A stretch of 64,000 bases of DNA from a virus (Duplodnaviria > Caudoviricetes): IMG/VR virus record IMGVR_UViG_3300023435_000009; one strand, 5' to 3'. The notes under the pieces were generated by a model, which ran no database searches, was not told the origin of the DNA, and worked only from the letters and a program-made list of their open reading frames with translations. Of this stretch, positions 3,570 to 64,000 are shown piece after piece. The first letter of the stretch is position 1; each line of letters starts with the position of its first letter. The position numbers and the translations under genes are program-made.

Positions 3570-3871
3570 TACCCCGTTACGAAGACCCAGGTGGGCACGG
3601 ACATCCCGGCTGATGCCCCTTCAGATGTTTCCGGGGATGAGCGGGAGATGATTAGGATGAGAGGGGGAAGTCCCGCCTCTGCTACGAGTTTGCCCTCACC
3701 CAGCCCCAACTTGCCCACCTCAGATGAGAACCCCGGTTGAAGTTTGACCTCTGGTGACGCAGATTTCGGTTTCTCACCCTGAAACTAGACAAGGGGGCAG
3801 AAAAGTTTTGAAAAGGCCCCAACTTATCAGACACATCCGGCGACCCCTTTAACGGGGGCTTTTGGGAGGAT

Positions 3872-5470: not shown

Positions 5471-6832
5471 TACAGCTTACCTTGATAAGAAGGCTTGTGT
5501 TTTTTGTTTTTCTTTAGTAAACTGCAACCATGGGATTGAGAACTTAAGGTAGCGAAATGATTCGGTCTTCTGCTCATAGCTTGCGGTTTGCAAACCCAGG
5601 TAAGGTGAGATTGGTAGGGGAACTTATCGGAGAGTATCGCCTTTTTGTCCAACGCATTCTAAACGACATATGGGAGAATGGCTTTCCAACGTGGGACTTT
5701 TTCCCAAGCTCAAACAGACTGGATTTCAAAGGCAAGAGCCTTCTACCCACAAAGTACCTCAAGCAGTTCCCAACAGAGATATCAGCAAGGCTTCAACAAG
5801 CTGCTGGTAAACAAGCCGTTATGATGCTCAAGGCAGCCACGGAGAAACGACGGAAACAACTTTTCGTGCTGGCTAACCTTCAGCGAGAAGGTAAGAAGTA
5901 CCAGTACCTCCAGTCAAGGGTTGACCGGCAACCTCTTGTGAAACCGGACGCTTCAGGAATCAATCTGGAACTAGATTCTCGTTTTGTGGGTTTCCAAGAG
6001 ACAGACATCTTTTTGTTTGTTCAACTCTCATCCCTTGGAATCCCACACATTAGAATTCCTATCAAAAAGACCCGTTGCTCTAACAAGTGGCAGACTAGGG
6101 GACTCCTGAAAGTATGTGTTAGGATCTCTGAGGACACACTACATCTAATTTACGAAGTGCCAAACAAAAGCGCCTCAGGAAGTCAGATAGTTGGTGCAGA
6201 CCAAGGTATCACAACTGCGTTGACTCTCTCAAATGGAGAAGCAACCAAACGTTGTCCTCATGGGCATACCCTCCAAACGATCCAAGCAAAACTTGCTCGT
6301 AAGCAAAAGGGGTCGAATGGTTTTCGTCGTACCCAAGAGCATCGCAAGAACTACATCCATTGGTCCTTGAATCAACTCAACTTCAAGGACGTGAAAGAAG
6401 TTCGTTTTGAGAAAATCAAGCATCTCCGCTTATCAAAGCGGAGTTCACGCTATATGTCACATTGGCGCTATACTTTGATCAAAGACAAACTTGTTCGTCT
6501 CTCTGAGGAGGAAGGTTTCCTTTTTCGGGAGGTTGCGAACGAGTTTAGGTCTCAGAGGTGTAGCGAGTGTGGCTGGGTCCGTAAGAGTAACAGGAAAGGT
6601 AAGACGTTCAAATGTGGCAAATGTGGCTTTACCATAGATGCTGATTTGAATGCGGCTTCCAACTTGAAGCTCGATCTCTTTGAGATCCAATGGTGGGTAC
6701 GGCTAAGTCAAATAAATCGTAAAGGGTTCTTTTGGACTTCTGATGGTTTGTTTGACGAAGGGCGGGAGTCTATAGTCCCCGCCACCATAAAAGACAATGA
6801 AAGTAAGAAATTGCTACAACATTGTTGACTAT
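5471..6832 (+). mobile_element. TnpB-only IS200/IS605-superfamily element, family A copy 1
   Basis: 1362-nt segment with a close second copy at 44072-45432; shared ends TAYAGCTTACC...GTTGACTAT (exact ends uncertain by 2-3 nt). Confidence 0.85.
5557..6828 (+). CDS. tnpB: RNA-guided endonuclease TnpB
   Basis: RuvC-I GADQG, RuvC-II VRFEK, Zn ribbon CSECG..CGKCG, RuvC-III DADLNAASNL. Confidence 0.92.
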   Translation: MIRSSAHSLRFANPGKVRLVGELIGEYRLFVQRILNDIWENGFPTWDFFPSSNRLDFKGKSLLPTKYLKQFPTEISARLQQAAGKQAVMMLKAATEKRRKQLFVLANLQREGKKYQYLQSRVDRQPLVKPDASGINLELDSRFVGFQETDIFLFVQLSSLGIPHIRIPIKKTRCSNKWQTRGLLKVCVRISEDTLHLIYEVPNKSASGSQIVGADQGITTALTLSNGEATKRCPHGHTLQTIQAKLARKQKGSNGFRRTQEHRKNYIHWSLNQLNFKDVKEVRFEKIKHLRLSKRSSRYMSHWRYTLIKDKLVRLSEEEGFLFREVANEFRSQRCSECGWVRKSNRKGKTFKCGKCGFTIDADLNAASNLKLDLFEIQWWVRLSQINRKGFFWTSDGLFDEGRESIVPATIKDNESKKLLQHC

Positions 6833-12387: not shown

Positions 12388-13889
12388 AGAAGGGGTACTT
12401 GACAGTATCCGACTTACTTGCTAGAGATTAATTATTCCTGCTTGAATCAGGAAGCAGAGGTTAGCAAATGAAGTGTCGCATCTTCCGACTTCACAAGGAT
12501 ACCAATCAGTCCAAGATCGATAAGTTGGAAGCCCTACACAAAGCATACGTCAAGTACGTCCGCATTTGCGTACAAACGATGCTTGACCAGCAGGTCTATA
12601 ATCTCCCGAAAGCCGCCAAACAAACGTTCTTCCCACGGGCCACCAACCTTACGTCCCAAATCGAAAAGATCGCACGAGACCACGCTATCCAAATTGTGAG
12701 CGCTTGGGCCAAAGCCACTTACGCCCGCAAGTTGAAACCGACTATCACCAACCTCAAGCACGAGGGTACCCTCACCGAACAGGACGCCAAAGCACTCTGT
12801 GTCATCGGATTAAAAGCCATCAGTAAGCCCTGGAAGTTTATCACCCAAGACCATCTCGACGCCTACCACACCCTGTTGGACACCTACGGAGGTAATAAGC
12901 CTATCGTAAGGGACAACCTGCCCATGCGGTTGTCGGAGATGACGGCTCGGTTGGAGGACGCATCTAAAGCCCCTCTCGGGGACTTCTGGTTGAGGGTGTC
13001 TTCGTTAGAAGCTCGTAAGTCCGTCTGGTTGCCTCTCGTTGGGAATCTTTACATTCAACAAGCTGATCAGGTCAGCAAAGGGATCTCAGCCCGCAAAACC
13101 AAGCGAGGCTTTTGGCGCTTTGAGGCGGTCAGTAAGGCTGAATGGGTTGTTCCCGAAGCACAGGAAGGTTGGCCTAAGTTGGGCGTTGACGTTGGTCTGA
13201 ACGTCCTTGCAGCTACATCAGATGGAGTGATTTACGGTGAACACGTCAAACCTAAGTTCGACAAACTCTACGCTCGTGTCAGAAATCTTCGAGCAAATCG
13301 CCAACGGCAGGATTTGAAGGATAACAGCCCAAAGTTGGATCACCTTGAGAGCAAATTGAGTGGGTTGATCAAGACAGAGACGGGTCGTGTGGTAAACACC
13401 CTTATCGTTCGTCATCCCGAGACGGTGTTCGTGGTCGAAGATCTCGATCTTCGAGGTTGTAGGGGTCAAAAAAGGTTTGCTTACAGGGCGTTACAGATCA
13501 ACTTGGAAAGGAAAGCTCCAACAAAGAAAGTGAACCCTGCTTACACGTCGCAGGAGTGTCCTTCTTGTGGTTATGTTCATCGAGGAAACCGAAGTTCAAT
13601 AAGGTTCCGTTGCCGCTCGTGCGGCAGGAAAGCTCATGCTGATTGGGTAGGAAGCGCTGGTGTGCTCAGACGTTCTGGAGACGAACACATCAAAGCTAAT
13701 GATCACCCACGAGGCGTAAAACGAGTGCTAAGAGAGCGATTCCGTATTAAGCGGACCAGTTCCTTGGGATTCGGACGGCAAGAGCAACCGTCATCCGAGC
13801 CCTTACCGTTGGGCCGGGAGCTTACTACCGAGGCACTTGGGTTACCAAGGATCGGCACAGCCTCAAACTTGATGCCTGTTACATTCTAG
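12388..13889 (+). mobile_element. TnpB-only element, family B full-length copy
   Basis: 5' region (AGAAGGGGTACTTGACAGTA...ACTTACT...TTCCTGCTTGAA.CAGGA) and tnpB 3' region are shared with the remnant at 63771-64000; ends approximate. Confidence 0.7.
12468..13889 (+). CDS. tnpB: RNA-guided endonuclease TnpB (family B)
   Basis: LGVDVGLN, VVEDL, CPSCG..CRSCG, HADWVG RuvC/Zn motifs. Confidence 0.9.
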   Translation: MKCRIFRLHKDTNQSKIDKLEALHKAYVKYVRICVQTMLDQQVYNLPKAAKQTFFPRATNLTSQIEKIARDHAIQIVSAWAKATYARKLKPTITNLKHEGTLTEQDAKALCVIGLKAISKPWKFITQDHLDAYHTLLDTYGGNKPIVRDNLPMRLSEMTARLEDASKAPLGDFWLRVSSLEARKSVWLPLVGNLYIQQADQVSKGISARKTKRGFWRFEAVSKAEWVVPEAQEGWPKLGVDVGLNVLAATSDGVIYGEHVKPKFDKLYARVRNLRANRQRQDLKDNSPKLDHLESKLSGLIKTETGRVVNTLIVRHPETVFVVEDLDLRGCRGQKRFAYRALQINLERKAPTKKVNPAYTSQECPSCGYVHRGNRSSIRFRCRSCGRKAHADWVGSAGVLRRSGDEHIKANDHPRGVKRVLRERFRIKRTSSLGFGRQEQPSSEPLPLGRELTTEALGLPRIGTASNLMPVTF

Positions 13890-14176
13890 CAGGTTTTAAG
13901 GAATGGTACCGTAGTGACCTCCCGAAGGGGGGGCCAGCGATGTCGGAGAGTACAAATACGACGAGATGGTGGGCGAAGAAATCAGTCGCTTCCGTAAGAA
14001 GCTGGACCCATTGTTGAAGTCCTACCGGAAGCACATCAAAGAGGTCCAGTTCGGGGGCGAAGAAAAGTCCTGGATTCACGCCTACATCGAACTCAAATAG
14101 CCTCTCCTCGGTAGAACGCCTATCTGACATCCCACAGCATTGACTCCCACAGCGAAAGTGGGCAAAGGAGAAAGAC

Positions 14177-14524: not shown

Positions 14525-15205
14525 CCCACCAGTTTGTCCAACTCACCCCTCAGATACTTCACGGCTGAGATACGTTTCCCCAGTCGATGATCTGTGACCT
14601 GATCCCTCTGGAGAGCGATAGTTCGTACCTTGTCGGACATCATGCCTCTCCCCACCTGAGCTTTCCGTTGCTGGTTACGTTGGTCCAACTGAGAGGATGC
14701 CTCTGCCTCCTGTAATCGGGCAGACAGGATTGCCTTCGCCGTTTGTAAATTCCGGTACTGTGATCGTTCGTTCTCTACTCGGACAACCAGACCCGTGGGT
14801 TTGTGTGTGAGGATTACTGCAGACGAGGTTTTATTCCGATGTTGGCCTCCAGGACCTGAGCCACGGGTCGCCTGCCACTCCAGGTCTCGCTCGTTCAGTT
14901 TGACGGTCTGCTCGTCCACGAGAGAGAGTATAGCGATAGTAACTGTTGACGTGTGTGTCCTGCCCCGTTTCTCCGTGGGGGGTACCCGCTGCCATCTCAT
15001 ACCACCGGCTTCATGCCGAAAAGCCCTTACAGCCCCCTTCCCGACCGCCTGGAAGGCAAGGAAACCGGGACGGTCCTCCAGCAACACCACGTCAAAGGGA
15101 CCTCCTCTGTGCCCATCGCACATAAACACCGTACTGTTCATGAACCAATAAGGAGGCATCCCGACCTCCCTCACCTGCTCTTATTTCTATTATGACAGTT
15201 TCCAT
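14521..15205 (-). CDS. class-1 peptide chain release factor-like protein (domains II-IV), expressed via +1 programmed frameshift; about 227 aa
   Basis: Frame 0 from ATG 15205 (GAAGGAG RBS): METVIIEIRAGEGGRDASLLVHEQYGVYVRWAQRRSL-stop. The +1 frame continues DVVLLEDRPG...RWQRVPPTEKRGRTHTS...GSGPGGQHRNKT. Confidence 0.9.
15091..15106 (-). promoter_or_regulatory. RF2-type +1 programmed ribosomal frameshift cassette
   Basis: AGGAGG-TCC-CTT-TGA-C: internal SD 3 nt upstream of CUU-UGA-C, the prfB architecture. Confidence 0.9.
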
Positions 15206-16320
15206 TAGTTTGACTCCTTCTCTAGCCCTAGTCGTCGGCAGGCCCACCCAGCCCATGCCGGGGTCATTTGAAAATGTTCCGCAATGCGTTTTTGTGTCCA
15301 GCCTTGCCCCCTCAGTTGACGGAGTTCCTTTTCGACTTGATCAATTTTTGCGGGAGCTTTACCCCTCACCTGAAGCTTGTATCGGAAGCAATCAGGACAA
15401 AAAGGTTCCGTTAGGGCCACCAGTTCCAGTCGGTGTTTTCGTTGGCTTAGGACCAGTCTAGGATTCCCTCTGTGGCTCTGCACACGAGGAGACCAACCAT
15501 AAAGTAGCCGCAGTCTAGAGGCTAGAAACTCGACATCCTCCCAGGTGAAACCGTCCGTGCAAAAGGCTACCCCATACCCTGTATTAATCAGCCCACCATC
15601 ACCCCAGTACCAATGCGCTAACGCTCGGGGGGTTAGCCGGATGTCCAGAGGAATAATTTTTTTACCCTTTGGGTACCAACGGAGGCGCTGGTCCGTAAAT
15701 GTTTTGTATTTCAGTGTCCTTAACTGTAAACTCGGGTTACCTCGGAGAACCTGTTTCCCAATGTGACCGATTCTTGCCGGACGTGGTTTTATGTTGCTTT
15801 TAACACCCCCGGCCCTAAGTTCCCTTTGAACCTGTTCAAGCCATTCCTTTCGGTCTGCTCTTTGTGCTAGTCCCAGACGACCCTCACTGCCACCTGTTTT
15901 TTCCAACCAGGCGTCACCAAGAAGTAAACCATCGATTAATTCAAGGGACTCCTCTGTGGTAGGGAAGGTCTTGTGACAAATCAGAGTATGTGCCTCCTGT
16001 ACCCCCCGTAGAGGAACACCAGCCCGCTCTAAACGGATACGCACCCAGTTGCGACTGAAACCCGTTGCCTTCGCTAACTCAGAGACAGAACGTCCTGACA
16101 GATACTCAGCGGGAAGGCTTTCCGTTGTTTTTGCATCTCGTTTGCCTTGAGCGATTGTTGCAGCCTCACTGTGGGTGCGGAAAGAAACATCTGCTTTAGC
16201 CAACCGTCGATGAATCACAGGTGCTGAAACACCTAGTGCCTTAGCAATGTGCAACTCCAGTTCCCCCGCTTGGTACCGACGAACAATGTCTGCGTCATCC
16301 AACGTGAGTCTTTTGGGCAT
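15205..16320 (-). CDS. LAGLIDADG homing endonuclease with N- and C-terminal HTH-like segments
   Basis: LIDGLLLGDAWL and ALAHWYWGDGGL motifs; GAGGAGG RBS before ATG 16320; TAATG overlap with the release-factor gene. Confidence 0.85.
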   Translation of the reverse strand: MPKRLTLDDADIVRRYQAGELELHIAKALGVSAPVIHRRLAKADVSFRTHSEAATIAQGKRDAKTTESLPAEYLSGRSVSELAKATGFSRNWVRIRLERAGVPLRGVQEAHTLICHKTFPTTEESLELIDGLLLGDAWLEKTGGSEGRLGLAQRADRKEWLEQVQRELRAGGVKSNIKPRPARIGHIGKQVLRGNPSLQLRTLKYKTFTDQRLRWYPKGKKIIPLDIRLTPRALAHWYWGDGGLINTGYGVAFCTDGFTWEDVEFLASRLRLLYGWSPRVQSHRGNPRLVLSQRKHRLELVALTEPFCPDCFRYKLQVRGKAPAKIDQVEKELRQLRGQGWTQKRIAEHFQMTPAWAGWACRRLGLEKESN

Positions 16321-16376
16321 AACGTCCTCCTCTGACAGCCCCACTCTACACGACGATCTCTGACCGGCAAGGACTT

Positions 16377-16685
16377 TCACACCCACTTGTTCCGGGGGAC
16401 AAAGATCAGGGTGACGCTGTCGTCCTCCCAATCCACACCCTGGCATCGTGCCCATGTCCTAAACTCTCGTGTTTCTCGTCGCCACCGATAGATCCGGTCA
16501 CGGCACCCGATGTCACAGATGCCCCGGCTCATACGAGGACGACCGAAAGTGCGCTTGCGGCAGTGGCAGGCTAACGATGGGGTCTTGGCGTACCGATGTG
16601 GCTCCACATCCTCGGGAGCGCTGTAGATTTCAAGACGTGAACGGATGACATTTGCTGTCCTCTGGCGGCGGGTTCCACGGTCCAT
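16377..16685 (-). CDS. hypothetical protein
   Basis: GGAGGA RBS, co-oriented. Confidence 0.5.
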   Translation of the reverse strand: MDRGTRRQRTANVIRSRLEIYSAPEDVEPHRYAKTPSLACHCRKRTFGRPRMSRGICDIGCRDRIYRWRRETREFRTWARCQGVDWEDDSVTLIFVPRNKWV

Positions 16686-26054: not shown

Positions 26055-26095
26055 TTTGCGTGTCTCCTTGCGGGGGTCCTTTGCCCTCACCTAGA

Positions 26096-26123
26096 CTACT
26101 CTGTAGGTCGGTCAGATGATCCC
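26096..26123 (-). promoter_or_regulatory. conserved bipartite motif (putative phage promoter)
   Basis: GGGATCATCT-N12-GAGTAG upstream of the macrodomain gene. Confidence 0.8.
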
Positions 26124-27528: not shown

Positions 27529-28308
27529 TCAGATCACCTGCTGTACGATCTGGACAACCTCGTCGGTTGCAATGAAGCCATTTTCCGCTGCCATGATTTT
27601 CGCCACCCCGCCTGCAGCGAGAATGAAGCCTGTACCCGGCTCCAGGACATAGCTGACGTAGCGGCTGACCGGGAGCATTGACCGCAGGGTGTTCTTGGCG
27701 ATGGTTTTGGGTTTGCTGTTGGGCTCCGGGATTGGACCATTTGGGGCAGGTTCCAGCACCTTGGAATGTGTCTTGAGAGCGTGGAGATAAATGGTTCCCG
27801 GCAAGGCGGCACGGGGTTCTCCCGTACAGTTCCGGCAGTGGCACATCCGGTAGGCTCCATTCCTGTCCCGTGTTCCCTTTACGCAATGATAGACCTTGCT
27901 CCCCCGGACGGTCTCCCCGTCAACCACCAGCGGTTCGAATACGTGACTGTTGGTTGCGGTGCTGTCCGAGGTGTTGTTCCCGGCGAGGCTCCTCTCGAAG
28001 GAGGCAATCAACTCGCCCCGTGCCTGCTCAACGTCCGCTACCGTGATTGTGTGGCCCTCGGCTGCGGCCTTGGTGATCATGTCCGTGGCCCACACGTCCG
28101 GGAGGACATTCAGACTGCGCTGCACGAGGCGATCATAGTGGAACCCCGTAATGAGTGTAACCCAAACCCTTTCATCTCCGTACACGAGACCGCCCCGGAC
28201 CGTTCCCTTTTTTGTGATCTGCAATCCGGTGAAACCAGCGTGAGCCTTTTCGAGCATGACGGCGAGCAGTTTGCTGTTGGCGTTGGTTTTCATCTCGTTC
28301 TCCTTCAG
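27529..28308 (-). CDS. hypothetical protein, paralog of 24657-25475
   Basis: see paralog; extra CHCRNC insert; start uncertain (28308 or 28287). Confidence 0.75.
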   Translation of the reverse strand: MKENEMKTNANSKLLAVMLEKAHAGFTGLQITKKGTVRGGLVYGDERVWVTLITGFHYDRLVQRSLNVLPDVWATDMITKAAAEGHTITVADVEQARGELIASFERSLAGNNTSDSTATNSHVFEPLVVDGETVRGSKVYHCVKGTRDRNGAYRMCHCRNCTGEPRAALPGTIYLHALKTHSKVLEPAPNGPIPEPNSKPKTIAKNTLRSMLPVSRYVSYVLEPGTGFILAAGGVAKIMAAENGFIATDEVVQIVQQVI

Positions 28309-28330
28309 GGTCATTTGCCCCTCACCTCTA

Positions 28331-28358
28331 CTACTCTGGGGTCGGAGGAGATGATCCC
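28331..28358 (-). promoter_or_regulatory. conserved bipartite motif (putative phage promoter)
   Basis: GGGATCATCT-N12-GAGTAG. Confidence 0.8.
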
Positions 28359-34632: not shown

Positions 34633-34693
34633 ACAAGGTAGCAGTTGCACTCGCTGAGGGTGCATGGATTGAAACCAAATGAGGAGGCACCAA

Positions 34694-44071: not shown

Positions 44072-45432
44072 ATAGTCAACAATGCTGTAGCAATTTCTTG
44101 CTTTCATTGTCTTTTATGGTAACGGGGACTATAGGCTCCCGCCCTTCATCAAACAAACCATCAGAAGTCCAGAAGAACCCTTTACGATTTATTTGACTTA
44201 GCCGCACCCACCATTGGATCTCAAAGAGATCGAGTTTCAAGTTGGAAGCCGCATTCAAGTCAGCATCGGTGATAAAACCACATTTGCCGCATCTGAACGT
44301 CTTACCTTTCCTGTTACTCTTACGGACCCAGCCACATTGGCTACACCTCTGAGACCTAAACTCATTCGCTACCTCCCGAAAAAGGAAACCTTCCTCCTCA
44401 GAGAGACGAACAAGTTTGTCTTTGATCAAAGTGTAACGCCAGTGTGACATATAACGTGAACTCCGTTCACCCCTACGGAGATGCTTGATCTTCTCAAAAC
44501 GAACTTCTTTCACGTCCTTGAAGTTAAGTTGATTCAAGGACCAATGGATGTAGTTCTTGCGATGCTCTTGGGTACGACGAAAGCCATTCGATCCCTTTTG
44601 CTTACGAGCAAGTTTTGCTTGGATCGTTTGGAGGTTATGCCCATGGGGACACGACAGTGTCGTTGCACCATTTGAAAGAGTCAACGCAGTAACTAATCCC
44701 TGGTCTGCCCCAACTATCTGACTTCCTGAAACGTTTTTGTTTGGTACTTCGTAAATTAGATGTAGTGTGTCTTCAGAGATCCTAACACACACTTTCAGGA
44801 TTCCTTTAGTCTGCCACTTGTTGGAGCATCGAGTTCTTTTGATGGGGACTCTAATGTGTGGAATACCAAGGGATGAGAGTTGGACAAACAAAAGATGTCT
44901 GTCTCTTGGAAACTCACAAAGCGAGAGTCTAGTTCCAGATTGATTCCTGAAGCATCTGGCTTAACAAGAGGTTGCCGGTCAACCTTTGACTGAAGTCGTT
45001 TGTACTTGCCACCTTCTCGCTGAAGGTTGGCCAACACGAAAAGTTGTTTCCGTCGTTTCTCTGTGGCTGCCTTGAGCATCATAATGGCTTGTTTTCCAGC
45101 AGCTTGCTGAAGCCTTGCTGACATCCACGTTGGGAACTGCTTGAGATATTTTGTGGGTAAATGATTCTTGCCCTTGAAGTCCAGTCTGTTTGAGCTTGGG
45201 AAAATGTTCCACGCTGGAAACCCCTTCTCCCATATGTCGTTTATGATGCATTGGACAAAAAGGCGGTACTCTCCGATAAGTTCGCCTACCAATCTCACCT
45301 TACCTGGGTTTGCAAACCGCAAACTATGGGCAGAAGACCGAATCATTTAGCCACCTTAAGTTCTCAATCCCATGGTTGCAGTTTACTAAAGAAAAACAAA
45401 AAACACAAGCCTTCTTATCAAGGTAAGCTATA
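44072..45432 (-). mobile_element. TnpB-only element, family A copy 2
   Basis: 1361 nt, collinear with 5471-6832, same ends. Confidence 0.85.
44076..45346 (-). pseudogene. tnpB: frameshifted tnpB
   Basis: the T5 run of copy 1 (6010-6014) is T4 here (44890-44893), splitting the ORF. Confidence 0.85.
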
Positions 45433-60146: not shown

Positions 60147-60665
60147 ATGGGAAACAAAGAGCAGGAGAAAGAGAAACGGCGTAGGAAGGCAGCACAGCGC
60201 CGTGCAACCAAGCGTAAGGAAAGGACAGCCAAGGCCAGACAAACAAAGCCCAAGGGGCTTGCCGATGTGACCCTGGAGGAGTTTCCAGATGAGCAATTGC
60301 TTTTCTGGCTGGCTCAGGGTGTCAACTATCTCGTATCCGACTACGACAATGGAGTCTGGTCCCCGTTGGTAGAGGGCATCTACGAAGGCAAGGTACCTTC
60401 AGCGGAGGAGCTTGCCCGGCTGGTGATGGCTCGGTTCGCTGACGAAAAGGAATGGCCCATAGAGGCTAAGGCTGCAGTTGCCTGGTCCGTGAGTGACCGG
60501 AACATCGTCTACATCTACTACAAGGAGGTGCTCCGCCGCCTCCGAACAACCTATCCCGATGTGGATGACATCGAGGCACTCGCACGGCAACCGCATCAAC
60601 CCCAGGTCTGGCAAGTGTTCAAATTCCTCCGTGACAAGCTGCTGAAGAAGAGTGTTGGCCGATGA
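60147..60665 (+). CDS. hypothetical protein with basic N-terminus
   Basis: first ORF of a plus-strand operon ending in thyX. Confidence 0.65.
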   Translation: MGNKEQEKEKRRRKAAQRRATKRKERTAKARQTKPKGLADVTLEEFPDEQLLFWLAQGVNYLVSDYDNGVWSPLVEGIYEGKVPSAEELARLVMARFADEKEWPIEAKAAVAWSVSDRNIVYIYYKEVLRRLRTTYPDVDDIEALARQPHQPQVWQVFKFLRDKLLKKSVGR

Positions 60666-60954
60666 GTGACGGAACAGGCTCCACCAACCGTTTGGCCCGT
60701 AAAATCCGAGCAGGAGGCTGTTGCCCTGTTGGCAGTTACGAGCATCAGGTGCCCATGGCCCTTCGGGGACGTCGGCAGGAGATTGACATCTGTATTGCTG
60801 ATATTGTAGCCGCCCTGAACGCAGCCAACATCATCACCGTGGCAAGTTGCTGTGGGCACGGCGGGGAGAGGCTCGGAGACATCCTGTTGGAGGATGGGCG
60901 TGTGCTGTCTATTCAGATGCCCGAAAGGTCTACGGACACAACGGAGATCAGGTA

Positions 60955-61548
60955 ATGAGCACAGGAATTCGATTCGTAGACGTTCTTTTGCCTAAGCTGA
61001 GAGATGACAGCAAGACCCAAACCCGTAGGGTGGTGAAACCGCAACCCGACCAAGGGGGTGTCATTCGTCAGGGGCAAAACGAAGATGATCAACCTGTGTT
61101 TGTTGTGACCGAGTCTGGTTGCGGCGGGGAGTGGCACCACAACATCCAACCCCGTTATCTTACTGGTGACAGTGTCTACCTTCAGGAGCCCTTTTGGAGT
61201 AATGTGACAGGAAGCTCTATTCGGTTCTACCAGCCAAAGGGCAATGGTTGGGTTCCTGTATCTGGAAAGGGCTTGTCGGCGGCATATGCCCGCACCTGGC
61301 TCCGCATCACCAACGTGAGTGTCGAACGGTTGCAGGACATTAGCGAGGACGACTGCATTGCGGAAGGGATCGAGATGCAGGACGTGCGCCCCGGCAAATG
61401 GTTATTTCACGCTCCGGGTGTTGACGCTGATTTCTACTCAGCCCAAACTGCCTTCGCAGCCCTTTGGGACAGCCTCGCCAAACCTGATTTCCGTTGGAAG
61501 GACAACCCCTGGGTCTGGGTCTACACCTTCAAAAGGAAGACCTCATGA
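60955..61548 (+). CDS. ASCH-like phage protein
   Basis: KTQTRRVVKPQP, LRITNVSVERLQDISEDDCIAEG, NPWVWVYTF. Confidence 0.8.
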   Translation: MSTGIRFVDVLLPKLRDDSKTQTRRVVKPQPDQGGVIRQGQNEDDQPVFVVTESGCGGEWHHNIQPRYLTGDSVYLQEPFWSNVTGSSIRFYQPKGNGWVPVSGKGLSAAYARTWLRITNVSVERLQDISEDDCIAEGIEMQDVRPGKWLFHAPGVDADFYSAQTAFAALWDSLAKPDFRWKDNPWVWVYTFKRKTS

Positions 61549-62270
61549 TCCTGTTGAAACCCAGCTTCCACATCGAAGAGGGACTGTTCGGTGATGATGC
61601 ACTGCGTCTCATCGAGCGTGCCGGGCGTATCTGCTACAAGAGCGAGCCGAGGGGCAACCCGAAGGCCTTCGTGCGGAAGCGCCTCAGGCAAGGTCACGAA
61701 TCCATCCTGGAGCACGCTGGGTTCACCGTGCGGTTCGTGGTTGATCGGGGGATCTCGCACGAGTTGGTTCGACACAGGCTTGCGTCCTTCTCCCAGGAAA
61801 GCAGCCGTTACGTGGATTACACAGGAATGAAGTCGGACGGCCACTGCCAGTTCATCATCCCATCTTGGTTCGGTTCCGAGTACGAGGGTGGCTACTGGTT
61901 ACATTGGGAACAGGACAACTACCGCCGGGTCTGGCAGACGAAGGAAGGCGAAGCTTTCTATCAGGACGTCTGGTTGATGCCCGAGGACCCTGTCAGAATG
62001 TGGCTGAACGCTATGCTCCAGGCTGAAGGTCACTACCAGGCCCTTCGGGGAGCACAGTGGACACCACAGCAGGCCCGGAGCGTTCTACCCAACTCCACCA
62101 AGACCGAGATCTTTGTCACGGCAAACATCAGGGAATGGCGTCTCATAAGGAAACAACGGACAGCCCACGCTGCCCACCCGCAGATGCGGGAGGTGACGAT
62201 CCCCCTGTTGAAGGAGCTACGAACACGGACCCCTGTCCTGTTTGAGGACATCGAAGGAGCACCTGAATGA
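61545..62270 (+). CDS. thyX: FAD-dependent thymidylate synthase
   Basis: GHESILEH, SHELVRHRLASFSQESSRY signature. Confidence 0.95.
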   Translation: MILLKPSFHIEEGLFGDDALRLIERAGRICYKSEPRGNPKAFVRKRLRQGHESILEHAGFTVRFVVDRGISHELVRHRLASFSQESSRYVDYTGMKSDGHCQFIIPSWFGSEYEGGYWLHWEQDNYRRVWQTKEGEAFYQDVWLMPEDPVRMWLNAMLQAEGHYQALRGAQWTPQQARSVLPNSTKTEIFVTANIREWRLIRKQRTAHAAHPQMREVTIPLLKELRTRTPVLFEDIEGAPE

Positions 62271-62490
62271 CACTGGATGAGGCAATAGAGCACGCTGAGG
62301 ACACAGCCCGCCAGAAGCACAAGGATGGCCCCGACTGCACCTGTGCGGTGGAGCACCAGCAATTGGCTGAGTGGCTCAAAGAACTCAAGGCCCTCCGGGA
62401 ACGGGACGCTACAAAAATCGGCTCCGAGGTGGTCACCGAGACCCCTTAAAGTAGGTCGTGTCCTTTAGAAATGGATGCGTGGATTGAAAT

Positions 62491-63066
62491 CTAGCCCAGC
62501 ATCACCTTGTCCCGCCAGTAGTAGTAGGAGGCCTTCAGAGCGGCCTCGAAAGCCTCCGGCGACATCCCCGTGGCCGAGCCACCGTCATCCCCGAAGTGGT
62601 TGGCCATCAGGGTTTGAGGGATCATCGGCTCCTCATCCTCCGCAGAACAGAACTTCCCCAGCACACAGATGACGTTCCACTCGGTCTCGACGTAGGTTTC
62701 GTCCTCGGCCAGGACATCCCGATGGTAGAGCACGACGTCCACCGACCGGGGCGTCACCTTGGCCTCCGAGATGGGCGTGGGGCACTCGTACCCAACGGAC
62801 ATGCGGGGCGTCTCGCCGTCCCTCCGGGCCTTGTAGGACCCCCGGAGCTTGTCCCCCTCCTGGAGCACACGGATCCCTGCTTTGAAACCATCGGGTGAGA
62901 CGGGCACCAAGACGACGCCGTCCCGGTAGCCAGGGCGCTGGAGGTCGAAGTTCTCCTGGACCCGTTTGAGCAGTTCCTCGTCCGTGATCTCCCAGTGGGT
63001 GAGTCCGCTGTTGGGATCCCGTTGCCGGTCCACGAAAGGGCTCATTGCGATGCTTGGTGTCTTCAT
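62491..63066 (-). CDS. DUF3228-like protein
   Basis: GYRDGVVLVPV...ARRDGETP...VDVVLYHRDVL. Confidence 0.6.
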   Translation of the reverse strand: MKTPSIAMSPFVDRQRDPNSGLTHWEITDEELLKRVQENFDLQRPGYRDGVVLVPVSPDGFKAGIRVLQEGDKLRGSYKARRDGETPRMSVGYECPTPISEAKVTPRSVDVVLYHRDVLAEDETYVETEWNVICVLGKFCSAEDEEPMIPQTLMANHFGDDGGSATGMSPEAFEAALKASYYYWRDKVMLG

Positions 63067-63124
63067 GTTTCCTCCTGCCTGACAGGACGGACGGGGCTGT
63101 CAGGTTGTGACAGTTATACTGCCG

Positions 63125-63550
63125 TCACCTGTCTTCTAGGGGGATGCACGTTGCACGGGATGCCCCCCGAAGGCGACCATCGGCACCTTTCCACAGGAGC
63201 ACCCAGGAGGAATGCTCCTTCTCAAGCCAAGGGAGACGTCCATTAACGGCCCCTCTGGTTCGCACGATGGTCGAGCTTTCGCTGTCCCCTTGTGCTACGA
63301 GACCTTCCACATCCCAGATGTAGATGTGTGTGCCTCGTGGGACTCGGAAGAAACGGGTTTCCATAAAGATGTCGAAATACCCCGCTACCACCATGTCTTT
63401 GCGAGATGGGATCTTATCCGGTTCATACCCCATGTCCTCCATGCATTCAGCCCATTCCTCGTCTGTGTAGGAAGCAGGGGCTACTGTGATTTCGTTAATG
63501 CAGCGGCCATCCACTATTTTGTTTGGGCAGCGAGCACTACAGGGTATCAT
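63125..63550 (-). CDS. hypothetical protein
   Basis: first gene downstream of the motif at 63603. Confidence 0.55.
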   Translation of the reverse strand: MIPCSARCPNKIVDGRCINEITVAPASYTDEEWAECMEDMGYEPDKIPSRKDMVVAGYFDIFMETRFFRVPRGTHIYIWDVEGLVAQGDSESSTIVRTRGAVNGRLPWLEKEHSSWVLLWKGADGRLRGASRATCIPLEDR

Positions 63551-63602
63551 TTTGTCTCCTGGCCCTTCGGGTATCCATTAGCGTCCTCATGTACACCATT
63601 AA

Positions 63603-63630
63603 CTACTCGGACGGTCCCCCAGATGATCCC
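63603..63630 (-). promoter_or_regulatory. conserved bipartite motif (putative phage promoter)
   Basis: GGGATCATCT-N12-GAGTAG. Confidence 0.8.
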
Positions 63631-63770
63631 ACTAGTCGCCTTGGTGCGACTTCCCCGTCGTCTGAACTCCTGGTAGCGGGTGACCCCCAGGTGTTCCTTG
63701 AGGTACCTCGCCGTGTCTTTCCTTGGGATTGTGAAACTGAGGGTTAACGACAAGTCTCCGTCGTCCTCAA

Positions 63771-64000
63771 AGAAGGGGTACTTGACAGTACCCCTCAAAC
63801 TTACTAAAGTCTAATTGTTCCTGCTTGAAACAGGAGGCTGTTATGGCAGGAAGGCTTATGCTGATTGGGTAGGAGGTTCTGGTGTGCCCAGATGTTCTGG
63901 GGGTGAACACATTGGTACTAACGATCACCCACGAGGCGTAAAACGAGTGCTGAGAGAGCGATTCCGTCTTCGACGGACCAGTTCCTTGGGATTCGGACGG
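63771..64000 (+). mobile_element. internally deleted miniature derivative of the family-B TnpB element (runs off the window)
   Basis: left-end hairpins joined directly to sequence homologous to about 13622-13779 of the full tnpB. Confidence 0.85.

What the first reader, a model, noticed from the sequence alone, without database searches (positions are those of the whole stretch)
63771..64000. Guide-only miniature of the family-B TnpB element
Seen: 63771-63835 matches the region upstream of tnpB at 12388-12460 (20-nt identity AGAAGGGGTACTTGACAGTA; hairpins AGGGGTACT-TGAC-AGTACCCCT and TTCCTG-CTTGAAA-CAGGA). It is joined directly to a homologue of the tnpB 3' part (GRKAYADWVG...RTSSLGFGR), with about 1.15 kb deleted. 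A sigma70-like TTGACA-N17-TAAAGT is present. Established: the omega-RNA overlaps the tnpB 3' end. Inference: a non-coding cassette that supplies a second guide in trans to the intact TnpB at 12468, a step toward CRISPR-like multi-guide use. The shared 20-mer could instead be a preferred target site.
Basis: partly seen in the sequence, partly recalled or inferred. Interest (0 to 1): 0.65.

Follow-up and report, generated by a model that had tools for sequence, protein, structure and literature searches.

The report
Guide-RNA-only mini transposon in megaphage
The window ends inside a 350-360-base, protein-less copy of an IS607-type TnpB transposon that keeps both ends, a promoter and the complete guide-RNA (omegaRNA) scaffold; it has spread to at least seven sites in this salt-lake megaphage lineage, and it is a clean new example of the already known "standalone omegaRNA" kind.

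Summary
Window 63771-63838 is the left end of the tnpB element at 12388-13908. It is fused to that element's last ~285 nt, with 1,164 nt of tnpB deleted.

An identical IMG/VR contig (L001) supplies the missing part. The right end is complete, the element is 350-360 nt, and a unique flank (the guide) follows.

The same deletion junction occurs at seven or more different insertion sites in related contigs, so this is a transposed family and not a local deletion. Full copies elsewhere carry a serine-recombinase tnpA, which makes the family IS607-type. The ends read ..ARGGG|T at the left and ..AACGG|T at the right.

The retained 3' part is a structured RNA: 74 pairs, 34 with changes on both sides, 96.8% paired against 33-50% in slid controls. 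The minis keep that structure, with 4 broken pairs against about 22 expected. All seven minis keep TTGACA-N17-TAAAGT.

The most likely reading is a non-autonomous element whose omegaRNA is used in trans by a family-B TnpB to cut insert-free alleles. Transcription and trans use were not shown.

Standalone omegaRNAs are already published, and this scan found similar minis earlier in the same genome. Verdict: a new member of a known kind. The "step toward CRISPR" idea is untested.

The parts
63771..63779 (+). Left flank and boundary: AGAAG (flank) followed by GGGGT. The G-rich target/TAM-like motif (consensus A-R-G-G-G, then T) contains the presumed GG crossover dinucleotide.
   Evidence: The flanks of ten copies diverge 5' of GGGT but are purine-rich. 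Loose ends of metagenome contigs begin at L001 3263/3264. IS607 is published to use a GG core and a TGGG TAM (10.1101/2023.11.20.567912).
63774..63795 (+). Left-end palindrome AGGGGTACT-TGAC-AGTACCCCT. It is probably a recombinase binding site, and it overlaps the -35 box.
   Evidence: Read directly from the sequence. It is conserved, with G-U/T-type changes, in all minis and in the tnpB-only full copies, and in diverged form upstream of tnpA in G001. Its function is inferred.
63782..63810 (+). Sigma-70-like promoter TTGACA-N17-TAAAGT (10 of 12 matches).
   Evidence: Found by the scan. It is identical in both boxes in 7 of 7 minis; the full copies have TAGAGA or TAAAAT as the -10 box. There is no expression data.
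63818..63835 (+). Hairpin TTCCTG-CTTGAAA-CAGGA. This is the 5'-UTR hairpin of tnpB in full copies, and it lies at the 5' end of the predicted mini transcript.
   Evidence: Read from the sequence, and conserved in all copies. It forms in the MFE fold of the predicted transcript.
63838..63839 (+). Deletion junction: full-element position 68 joined to position 1233, with GC microhomology. 1,164 nt of tnpB are missing.
   Evidence: The same junction is present without gaps in every mini of the family.
63845..64000 (+). First 156 nt of the ~285-nt omegaRNA scaffold, equivalent to the tnpB 3' end from the RuvC-III HAD motif onward. It continues to window-equivalent 64129 (L001 3333-3617) and ends ...AAGGAACGGT. 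The guide, AGGGTTTGTCCGTGAGGATT, follows at L001 3618-3637.
   Evidence: L001 is 100% identical to window 60513-64000 and runs on beyond it. The m_win copy has 74 of 74 pairs canonical. The single-sequence fold gives z -3.3.
12388..13908 (+). Full-length tnpB-only family-B element, the reference copy and candidate trans partner. It holds the left end, promoter, tnpB 12468-13889 and an omegaRNA overlapping the tnpB 3' end; the right end is at 13907 and the guide runs from 13908/13909.
   Evidence: PF07282, OrfB_IS605; the RuvC D/E/D residues and the CxxC..CxxC motif are conserved.

Best explanation
The feature is the first 230 nt of a 350-360-nt non-autonomous derivative of an IS607-type tnpB transposon. 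From left to right it consists of:
- the left end, with a recombinase-site palindrome and a TTGACA-N17-TAAAGT promoter;
- the 5'-UTR hairpin;
- after a 1,164-nt internal deletion, the last ~285 nt of the element, which is the complete omegaRNA scaffold and ends at the right end ...AACGGT.

Shown:
- The architecture and the intact right end.
- The same junction at seven or more independent insertion sites, which means it was mobilised after the deletion.
- The scaffold is a conserved, covarying RNA structure that the minis have kept.

Inferred:
- A serine-recombinase TnpA encoded by full IS607 copies elsewhere in this phage lineage moves it in trans, between GG(T) cores.
- The left-end promoter transcribes scaffold plus flank.
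- A family-B TnpB, such as the intact one at 12468-13889, binds this RNA in trans. With the 3' flank AGGGUUUGUCCGUGAGG as guide, it cuts A-R-GGG(T)-adjacent insert-free alleles of this locus in sister or co-infecting genomes.
- Recombinational repair then copies the mini back in (homing or retention).

Here the insert lies antisense inside a small reconstructed 106-codon gene.
For: Architecture:
- The right end and unique flank come from L001, which is 100% identical to the window's last 3,488 nt.

Spread:
- In the 188-kb relative contig there are 3 full copies and 5 minis with the identical junction.
- More mini sites occur in metagenome contigs: L037 is a new site, and L036 is a complete copy of a site that is truncated in G001.
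- Contig depth over the element is 10-28 times that of the flanks, and further unseen flanks appear as loose ends.
- An independent mini with a different junction that also keeps the omegaRNA region exists in another phage contig, L023.

Family:
- Resolvase-type tnpA lies directly upstream of two full copies.
- Ends read ARGGG|T...AACGG|T. This matches the published IS607 GG core, TGGG TAM and scaffold ending UCGG (10.1101/2023.11.20.567912).

RNA:
- 74 consensus pairs, 34 with changes on both sides; 96.8% of cells paired against 33-50% when slid; 0 of 500 shuffles reach the observed values.
- Within the minis alone, 40 substitutions fall in paired columns but only 4 cells are broken, against 21.8 +/- 3.2 expected (0 of 2000 simulations).
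- Promoter boxes are identical in 7 of 7 minis.

Partner and site:
- TnpB keeps its catalytic motifs.
- Removing the 350 nt between the two GGT repeats rebuilds a 106-codon minus-strand ORF that is start- and stop-coupled to its neighbours.

Literature:
- Standalone omegaRNAs are mobilised and work in trans (PMC10691335).
- PATEs often encode omegaRNAs that need TnpB in trans (10.1101/2023.03.14.532601).
Against: - There is no evidence of transcription or of TnpB binding.
- No serine tnpA lies in the 64-kb window or in L001, so present-day mobility in this genome is unproven.
- The mini scaffold is only 89% identical to that of the TnpB copy in the window, so compatibility is assumed from the conserved structure.
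- Structure conservation in the minis could partly reflect gene conversion from selected full copies; mosaic blocks are shared between minis and fulls.
- pN/pS of the retained tnpB fragment is 0.50 in both minis and fulls, so it does not separate RNA constraint from coding constraint.
- No insert-free allele was found, so the empty site and TAM are reconstructions.
Confidence: 0.75

Rival explanations
1. It is a dead relic. An internally deleted element was copied a few times in the past and now merely decays. Its RNA, if made at all, has no role.
For: - There is no tnpA in the window.
- One family member, G001 97456 (also in L030), has lost its 3' half.
- Small indels occur near the 3' end in two copies.
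- An earlier scan note (e1-5401882) describes a 123-nt decayed relic elsewhere in this genome.
- No expression data exist.
Against: - After about 9-12% divergence the complete minis keep 97-100% of 74 pairs, far better than random placement of the same substitutions.
- Promoter boxes are invariant in 7 of 7 minis.
- Both ends are intact.
- The window copy has 74 of 74 pairs intact.
Confidence: 0.13
2. The retained tnpB 3' fragment is translated into a small C-terminal TnpB peptide (about 88-98 aa) that has its own function, for example as a modulator of TnpB.
For: - The tnpB frame stays open through the fragment in all minis.
- A 98-aa TTG ORF is listed at L001 3303-3599.
- pN/pS is 0.5, as in the full copies.
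Against: - No conserved start codon or ribosome-binding site exists in that frame. The ATG after AGGAGG in the window copy is out of frame and reads GCG, GTG or ACG in other copies.
- The frame is broken near the end in m_G120 and m_G0.
- The fragment begins inside RuvC-III and cannot fold as a nuclease.
- RNA pairing explains the conservation.
Confidence: 0.04
3. It is a domesticated, distributed guide set. The phage keeps many standalone omegaRNAs as a multi-guide arsenal for one TnpB, aimed at competing phages or the host, and so stands as a functional precursor of a CRISPR array.
For: - Minis are at least as numerous as full copies in the relative contig: 5 against 3.
- Each mini has a different guide.
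- One mini (G001 185 kb) sits in a repeated motif, so its guide matches other motif copies 14/16; one of those copies is next to GGGT.
Against: - Every guide is simply the local flank, as expected from transposition.
- No guide matches any sequence we hold elsewhere better than chance allows. The window guide's 15/16 hit in G001 lacks a TAM and any flank homology.
- There is no array-like clustering.
- The window copy disrupts a gene rather than sitting in a dedicated locus.
Confidence: 0.08

Closest known systems
Standalone (effector-less) omegaRNA elements of OMEGA systems, and PATE-like IS200/IS605 derivatives that encode omegaRNAs (Altae-Tran 2021 as cited in PMC10691335; Meers et al., 10.1101/2023.03.14.532601)
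   Same: - Protein-less.
- Bounded by the transposon's own ends.
- Mobilised to several sites.
- Keeps the full guide-RNA scaffold with a site-specific guide outside the right end.
- Must rely on TnpA and TnpB supplied in trans.
   Different: - It derives from an IS607-type (serine recombinase) element, not a Y1/IS605 element.
- It resides in a roughly 0.5-Mb phage.
- It carries its own conserved sigma-70-like promoter directly upstream of the scaffold.
- Trans activity is not tested here.
IS607-family tnpA(S)-tnpB elements with omegaRNA, e.g. the C. botulinum IStron/IS607 (10.1101/2023.11.20.567912) and IS607 itself (PMC6188088)
   Same: - Serine tnpA lies upstream of tnpB in related full copies.
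- No inverted terminal repeats and no target-site duplication.
- GG at both junctions.
- G-rich motif 5' of the left end (A-R-GGG here, TGGG in C. botulinum).
- The scaffold ends ...CGG and the omegaRNA overlaps the tnpB 3' end.
   Different: - The mini has neither tnpA nor tnpB.
- It has no group I intron.
- No Rfam family matches its RNA.
- An invariant T follows the right-end GG.
MITEs (miniature non-autonomous transposons), including those reported in giant-virus genomes (PMC6004678)
   Same: Short internally deleted derivatives that keep only the ends, are amplified to several copies, and are mobilised in trans inside a viral genome.
   Different: - The ends are not inverted repeats.
- The internal part is a functional-looking structured guide RNA, not filler.

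Membership tests
IS607-family TnpB element | Serine-recombinase (resolvase-type) tnpA associated with tnpB | tested here: met
   PF00239 hits lie directly upstream of two full family-B copies in the related contig G001, with the ORFs overlapping tnpB by 4 nt. None is present in the window or in L001. The feature is therefore met for the family but not for this copy.
IS607-family TnpB element | No terminal inverted repeats or target-site duplication; GG core dinucleotide at both junctions and a G-rich TAM 5' of the left end | tested here: met
   Ten left junctions read ..A/R-R-GGG|TAC (GGGTAT and GGGTGC in the two tnpA-bearing copies) and fifteen right junctions read ..GAACGG-T| followed by unrelated flank. 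The exact crossover position is ambiguous by 1-3 nt.
IS607-family TnpB element | TnpB with RuvC D/E/D residues and a zinc ribbon (TNB domain) | tested here: met
   This holds for the partner at 12468-13889: PF07282 at 6e-13. The motifs GVDVGLN, VVEDLD, AHAD and CPSCG..CRSCG are conserved among relatives. The mini itself keeps only the region from the last Cys and HAD onward.
TnpB omegaRNA (reRNA) | Structured RNA overlapping the tnpB 3' end and ending at the right end, with covariation support, followed by a variable guide | tested here: met
   13 sequences and 74 pairs, 34 of them with changes on both sides; 96.8% paired against 33-50% when slid. The flanks after ...AACGGT are all different.
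Standalone omegaRNA / PATE-like non-autonomous element | No protein gene, both transposon ends retained, and found at multiple sites with the same internal structure | tested here: met
   1,164 nt of tnpB are deleted. The left and right ends are intact. The identical junction is present at seven or more distinct flanks.
Standalone omegaRNA / PATE-like non-autonomous element | The RNA is expressed and loaded onto a TnpB encoded elsewhere | not testable with these tools
   No RNA run lists the stretch. This needs RNA-seq or RIP and a cleavage assay.
CRISPR array or proto-array | Tandem repeat-spacer units transcribed together | tested here: not met
   The copies are dispersed single units kilobases apart, each with its own ends. 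The window holds only one mini and one full copy.
Any curated Rfam RNA family | Match to a covariance model | tested here: not met
   There was no hit at gathering thresholds on the window plus L001, and none at E <= 1 on L001 3200-3700.

The most novel reading that the evidence does not exclude
In this megaphage lineage the guide-only minis, which have their own promoter and are at least as numerous as the tnpB-bearing copies, are not mere parasites. They would act as a dispersed multi-guide system: one or a few TnpB genes use many standalone omegaRNAs to cut insert-free alleles in co-infecting relatives, giving gene-drive or marker exclusion at many loci. That would be a natural intermediate between one-guide transposon nucleases and array-based type V CRISPR.
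Probability: 0.12. Interest if true: 0.7.

Novelty: new member of a known kind. Interest (0 to 1): 0.35.

Why it matters
This is a well-resolved natural case of a guide RNA surviving and spreading without its nuclease gene, inside a phage of about 0.5 Mb rather than a bacterium. It comes from the less-studied IS607 branch.

The family gives a ready-made covarying alignment of a roughly 285-nt omegaRNA, clear left and right ends, and a candidate TAM (A-R-GGG). It also offers a set of natural guide/target pairs that could be tested for trans-acting TnpB homing between co-infecting phages.

It does not change current concepts. Standalone omegaRNAs acting in trans are published, and the scan had already met similar minis in this genome.

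Tried and rejected
- No whole genome is held for the window. The continuation came from IMG/VR contig L001 instead.
- Rfam gave nothing at gathering thresholds or at E <= 1.
- No RNA holder is listed for the stretch. All 24 holders are salt-lake DNA runs, so there is no information on expression.
- Laying contigs of 4 DNA runs showed no contig joining across the element, i.e. no empty-site allele. It showed only repeat-type depth and loose ends at the boundaries.
- A search for orthologous loci of the neighbouring 338-aa gene in IMG/VR returned only the same contig.
- A homologue search with the C-terminal piece of the split ORF returned only itself. The 38-aa N-terminal piece is below the tool's 40-aa minimum, so it was not pursued.
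- pN/pS of the retained tnpB fragment is 0.50 in both minis and full copies, which is uninformative.
- tblastn with the G001 TnpA against the window and L001 gave nothing below E 0.6.
- The PDB sequence search matched only the TNB/RuvC C-terminal part of Cas12f, CasPhi and TnpB-like chains, so there is no close solved relative.
- Guide matches elsewhere: the window guide has one 15/16 hit in G001, without a TAM or flank homology. It was treated as chance or a short shared peptide motif.
- Looking up earlier scan notes by sequence returned nothing.
- Whether G001 is a non-overlapping part of the same phage or a relative could not be decided. It shares no orthologous genes with 20 kb of the window and has no RtcB.

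Full report
**1. Observation**

The window ends at 64000, inside the feature. The 20-mer AGAAGGGGTACTTGACAGTA occurs only at 12388 and 63771, with 0 expected. A 27-mer of the tnpB 3' part occurs only at 13752 and 63974. Alignment shows that 63771-63838 equals the region upstream of tnpB (12388-12455) and is joined directly to the equivalent of 13617/13623 onward. In full-element coordinates, position 68 is joined to position 1233, so 1,164 nt are missing. The hairpins and TTGACA-N17-TAAAGT are present.

**2. The missing right half**

No genome is held for the window. An exact-word scan found IMG/VR contig L001 (6,459 nt). Its first 3,488 nt are 100% identical to window 60513-64000, and it continues 2,971 nt further.

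In L001, homology to the full element runs to ...TTTTAAGGAACGGT(A) at 3617/3618, equivalent to window 13907/13908. Beyond that the two flanks differ. The mini is followed by AGGGTTTGTCCGTGAGG, and the full copy by ACCGTAGTGACCTCCC.

The mini is therefore complete. It measures 360 nt by homology, or 350 nt between the two GGT repeats. The right end is not truncated.

**3. It is a family, and it is IS607-type**

A 188-kb IMG/VR contig (G001, CheckV 36% complete) holds three full copies and five minis. The minis align to the window's mini without any gap at the junction, at 91-95% identity. The contig comes from the same kind of habitat: the Logan runs that hold the sequence are salt-lake metagenomes, and G001's flanks occur in them.

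A junction-specific pattern found further sites in metagenome contigs:
- L037 is a new site.
- L036 is a complete mini at a site where G001 and L030 carry a 3'-truncated one.
- L035 joins the window's left flank to the right flank of a G001 full copy, probably an assembly chimera across the repeat.

At least seven distinct flank pairs share one deletion junction. That means a single deletion followed by transposition.

Contig depth over the element is 10-28 times that of its flanks, and loose ends begin exactly at L001 3263/3264 and 3617/3618.

A different phage contig (L023) has an independently derived mini with another junction that also keeps the 3' RNA region.

G001 has no Y1 transposase. 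It has three resolvase-type genes, and two lie immediately upstream of full family-B tnpB copies, overlapping tnpB by 4 nt. The left ends of these tnpA-bearing copies begin AAGGGGTATTTGAACAG and AAGGGTGCATGAGCAG, which are related to the AAGGGGTACTTGACAG of the tnpB-only and mini copies.

The left junctions read A/R-R-GGG|TAC in the minis and tnpB-only copies. All fifteen right junctions read GAACGG-T followed by unrelated sequence. This matches what is published for IS607 elements: a GG core dinucleotide, a TGGG target/TAM, an omegaRNA scaffold ending UCGG, no inverted repeats and no duplication (10.1101/2023.11.20.567912).

AGAAG is flank that fits the purine-rich target preference.

**4. 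The retained part is a conserved structured RNA**

Thirteen sequences (seven full, six mini) were aligned from the mini junction to the right end (A2). RNAalifold predicts 74 pairs, and 33-34 of them have compensatory double changes.
- 96.8% of cells are paired, against 33-50% with the partners slid.
- Pairs with changes on both sides number 34, against 4-10 in the slid versions.
- 0 of 500 shuffles reach any observed measure.

The window's mini has 74 of 74 pairs canonical.

Across seven minis, 40 substitutions fall in paired columns relative to the mini consensus, yet only 4 pair cells are broken. Random placement with the observed mutation spectrum gives 21.8 +/- 3.2, and 0 of 2000 simulations were as low as 4. 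There are two caveats: shared descent, and gene conversion from full copies. Mosaic blocks such as GGGCGATTAGAGCGGTCGTC are shared by m_G168 and f_G132.

The single-sequence fold reproduces the main helices, with z -3.3. For the predicted transcript with guide, z is -4.7. No Rfam family matches.

**5. Coding or RNA?**

The tnpB frame stays open in the minis, and pN/pS is 0.50 in both minis and full copies. This test does not discriminate. No in-frame start is conserved, and two minis have frame-breaking indels near the end. The fragment also starts inside RuvC-III. RNA constraint is the simpler explanation.

**6. Promoter**

TTGACA-N17-TAAAGT is identical in both boxes in 7 of 7 minis. The tnpB-only full copies have TAGAGA or TAAAAT as the -10 box. 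In the mini, the promoter lies about 40 nt upstream of the scaffold. Expression could not be examined.

**7. Partner and transposase in this window**

TnpB at 12468-13889 matches PF07282 and OrfB_IS605 and keeps the D/E/D residues and both CxxC pairs. PDB relatives match only its C-terminal part. No serine tnpA lies in the window or in L001.

Earlier scan notes, which are AI-written and which I did not re-check, say the genome is a 528-kb salt-lake phage with several TnpB/IscB elements. They also report another ~370-nt orphan omegaRNA mini (e1-5401876) and a 123-nt relic (e1-5401882).

**8. Insertion site**

The mini lies antisense between minus-strand genes. Removing the 350 nt between the GGT at L001 3265-3267 and the GGT at 3615-3617 rebuilds a 106-codon minus-strand ORF. 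Its ATG overlaps the stop of the upstream gene (TAATG), and its stop abuts the start of the next gene. The mini therefore appears to split a small gene.

The reconstructed empty site is ...CTCAAAGAAGGGGT|AGGGTTTGTCCGTGAGG..., a TAM-like motif followed by the guide match. No uninterrupted allele or homologue was found, so this remains a reconstruction.

For the G001 mini at 185 kb, the reconstructed empty site (CAAAGGGT+ATGTGGATTGAAACAC) resembles other copies of a repeated motif, RGGRTGYGTGGATTGAAAC. This independently supports the boundaries.

**9. Mechanism**

The best-supported reading is a non-autonomous IS607-derived element moved by TnpA(S) in trans. Its own promoter makes an omegaRNA that a family-B TnpB uses in trans to cut insert-free alleles, and the mini is restored by recombination.

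This is the published logic for IS605 and IS607 and for standalone omegaRNAs. The structure, ends, spread and conservation are shown here. Transcription, loading, cleavage and current mobility are inferred.

**10. Novelty**

The kind is known: [quoted passage not shown] (PMC10691335), and "PATE elements, which often encode omegaRNAs" (10.1101/2023.03.14.532601). What is particular here:
- the IS607 origin;
- the megaphage host;
- a conserved dedicated promoter;
- minis at least as numerous as full copies;
- insertion into a gene.

The CRISPR-precursor reading is not excluded, but nothing here supports it.

Verdict: a new member of a known kind, of moderate-to-low interest.

Noticed in passing
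L001 3035-3705, minus strand (window 63547-64217 equivalent): Removing the 350 nt between the two GGT repeats rebuilds a 106-codon ORF. It is coupled by TAATG to the upstream 338-aa gene and abuts the next gene's start. The mini therefore seems to split a small gene of unknown function, antisense to it. No homologues were found.
   Followed up: partly
window 34655-34676 and 62468-62491; G001 near 183-186 kb (L029): There is a repeated ~20-nt motif, RGGRTGYGTGGATTGAAAC. One G001 mini is inserted in a copy of it. Its guide therefore matches other copies 14/16, and one of those copies is next to GGGT.
   Followed up: partly
window 26060-26123 and 28290-28358: These ~65-nt stretches match five places in G001 at 77-89% identity, several of them within 0.3-1.5 kb of minis. 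Otherwise the 20 kb of window searched shares no genes with G001. They are probably a repeated regulatory motif of this phage lineage.
   Followed up: no
window 44259-44378, minus strand (inside ORF 44076-44891): A third TnpB-like zinc-ribbon/TNB segment, 40% identical over 40 aa to TnpB-B residues 353-392, in addition to the TnpB genes at 5557-6828 and 12468-13889.
   Followed up: no
L035 (FUWD013109582.1, 1,402 nt): This contig joins the window mini's left flank to the right flank of the G001 full copy at 103 kb. It is most likely an assembly chimera across the repeat, but recombination between copies cannot be excluded.
   Followed up: no
L011/L030 versus L036: The mini at G001 97456 has lost everything after scaffold position ~175 in G001 and in a second contig. 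It is complete at the same left flank in metagenome contig L036, so this is a later truncation.
   Followed up: partly
L023 1440-1882 (IMGVR_UViG_3300009514_000515): An independent mini in a more distant phage, with a different deletion junction. It keeps tnpB codons ~354-470, the whole omegaRNA region and the right end GAAGAACGGT.
   Followed up: partly
alignment A2 (minis and full copies): Mosaic blocks are shared between particular minis and particular full copies, for example m_G168 with f_G132 and m_G0 with f_win. This suggests gene conversion among copies.
   Followed up: no
L004 258-273 (G001 about 151392): A 15/16 match to the window mini's guide (AGGGGTTGTCCGTGAG) lies inside a gene with an HELGH motif. 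It has no GGG(T) immediately 5' and no flank homology, so it is probably chance.
   Followed up: partly
window 15205-16455, minus strand: A LAGLIDADG homing endonuclease with HTH domains lies 1.3 kb downstream of the full TnpB element. The window also holds two N6/N4 DNA methylases, RtcB and a 1,214-aa glycosyltransferase/radical-SAM fusion.
   Followed up: no
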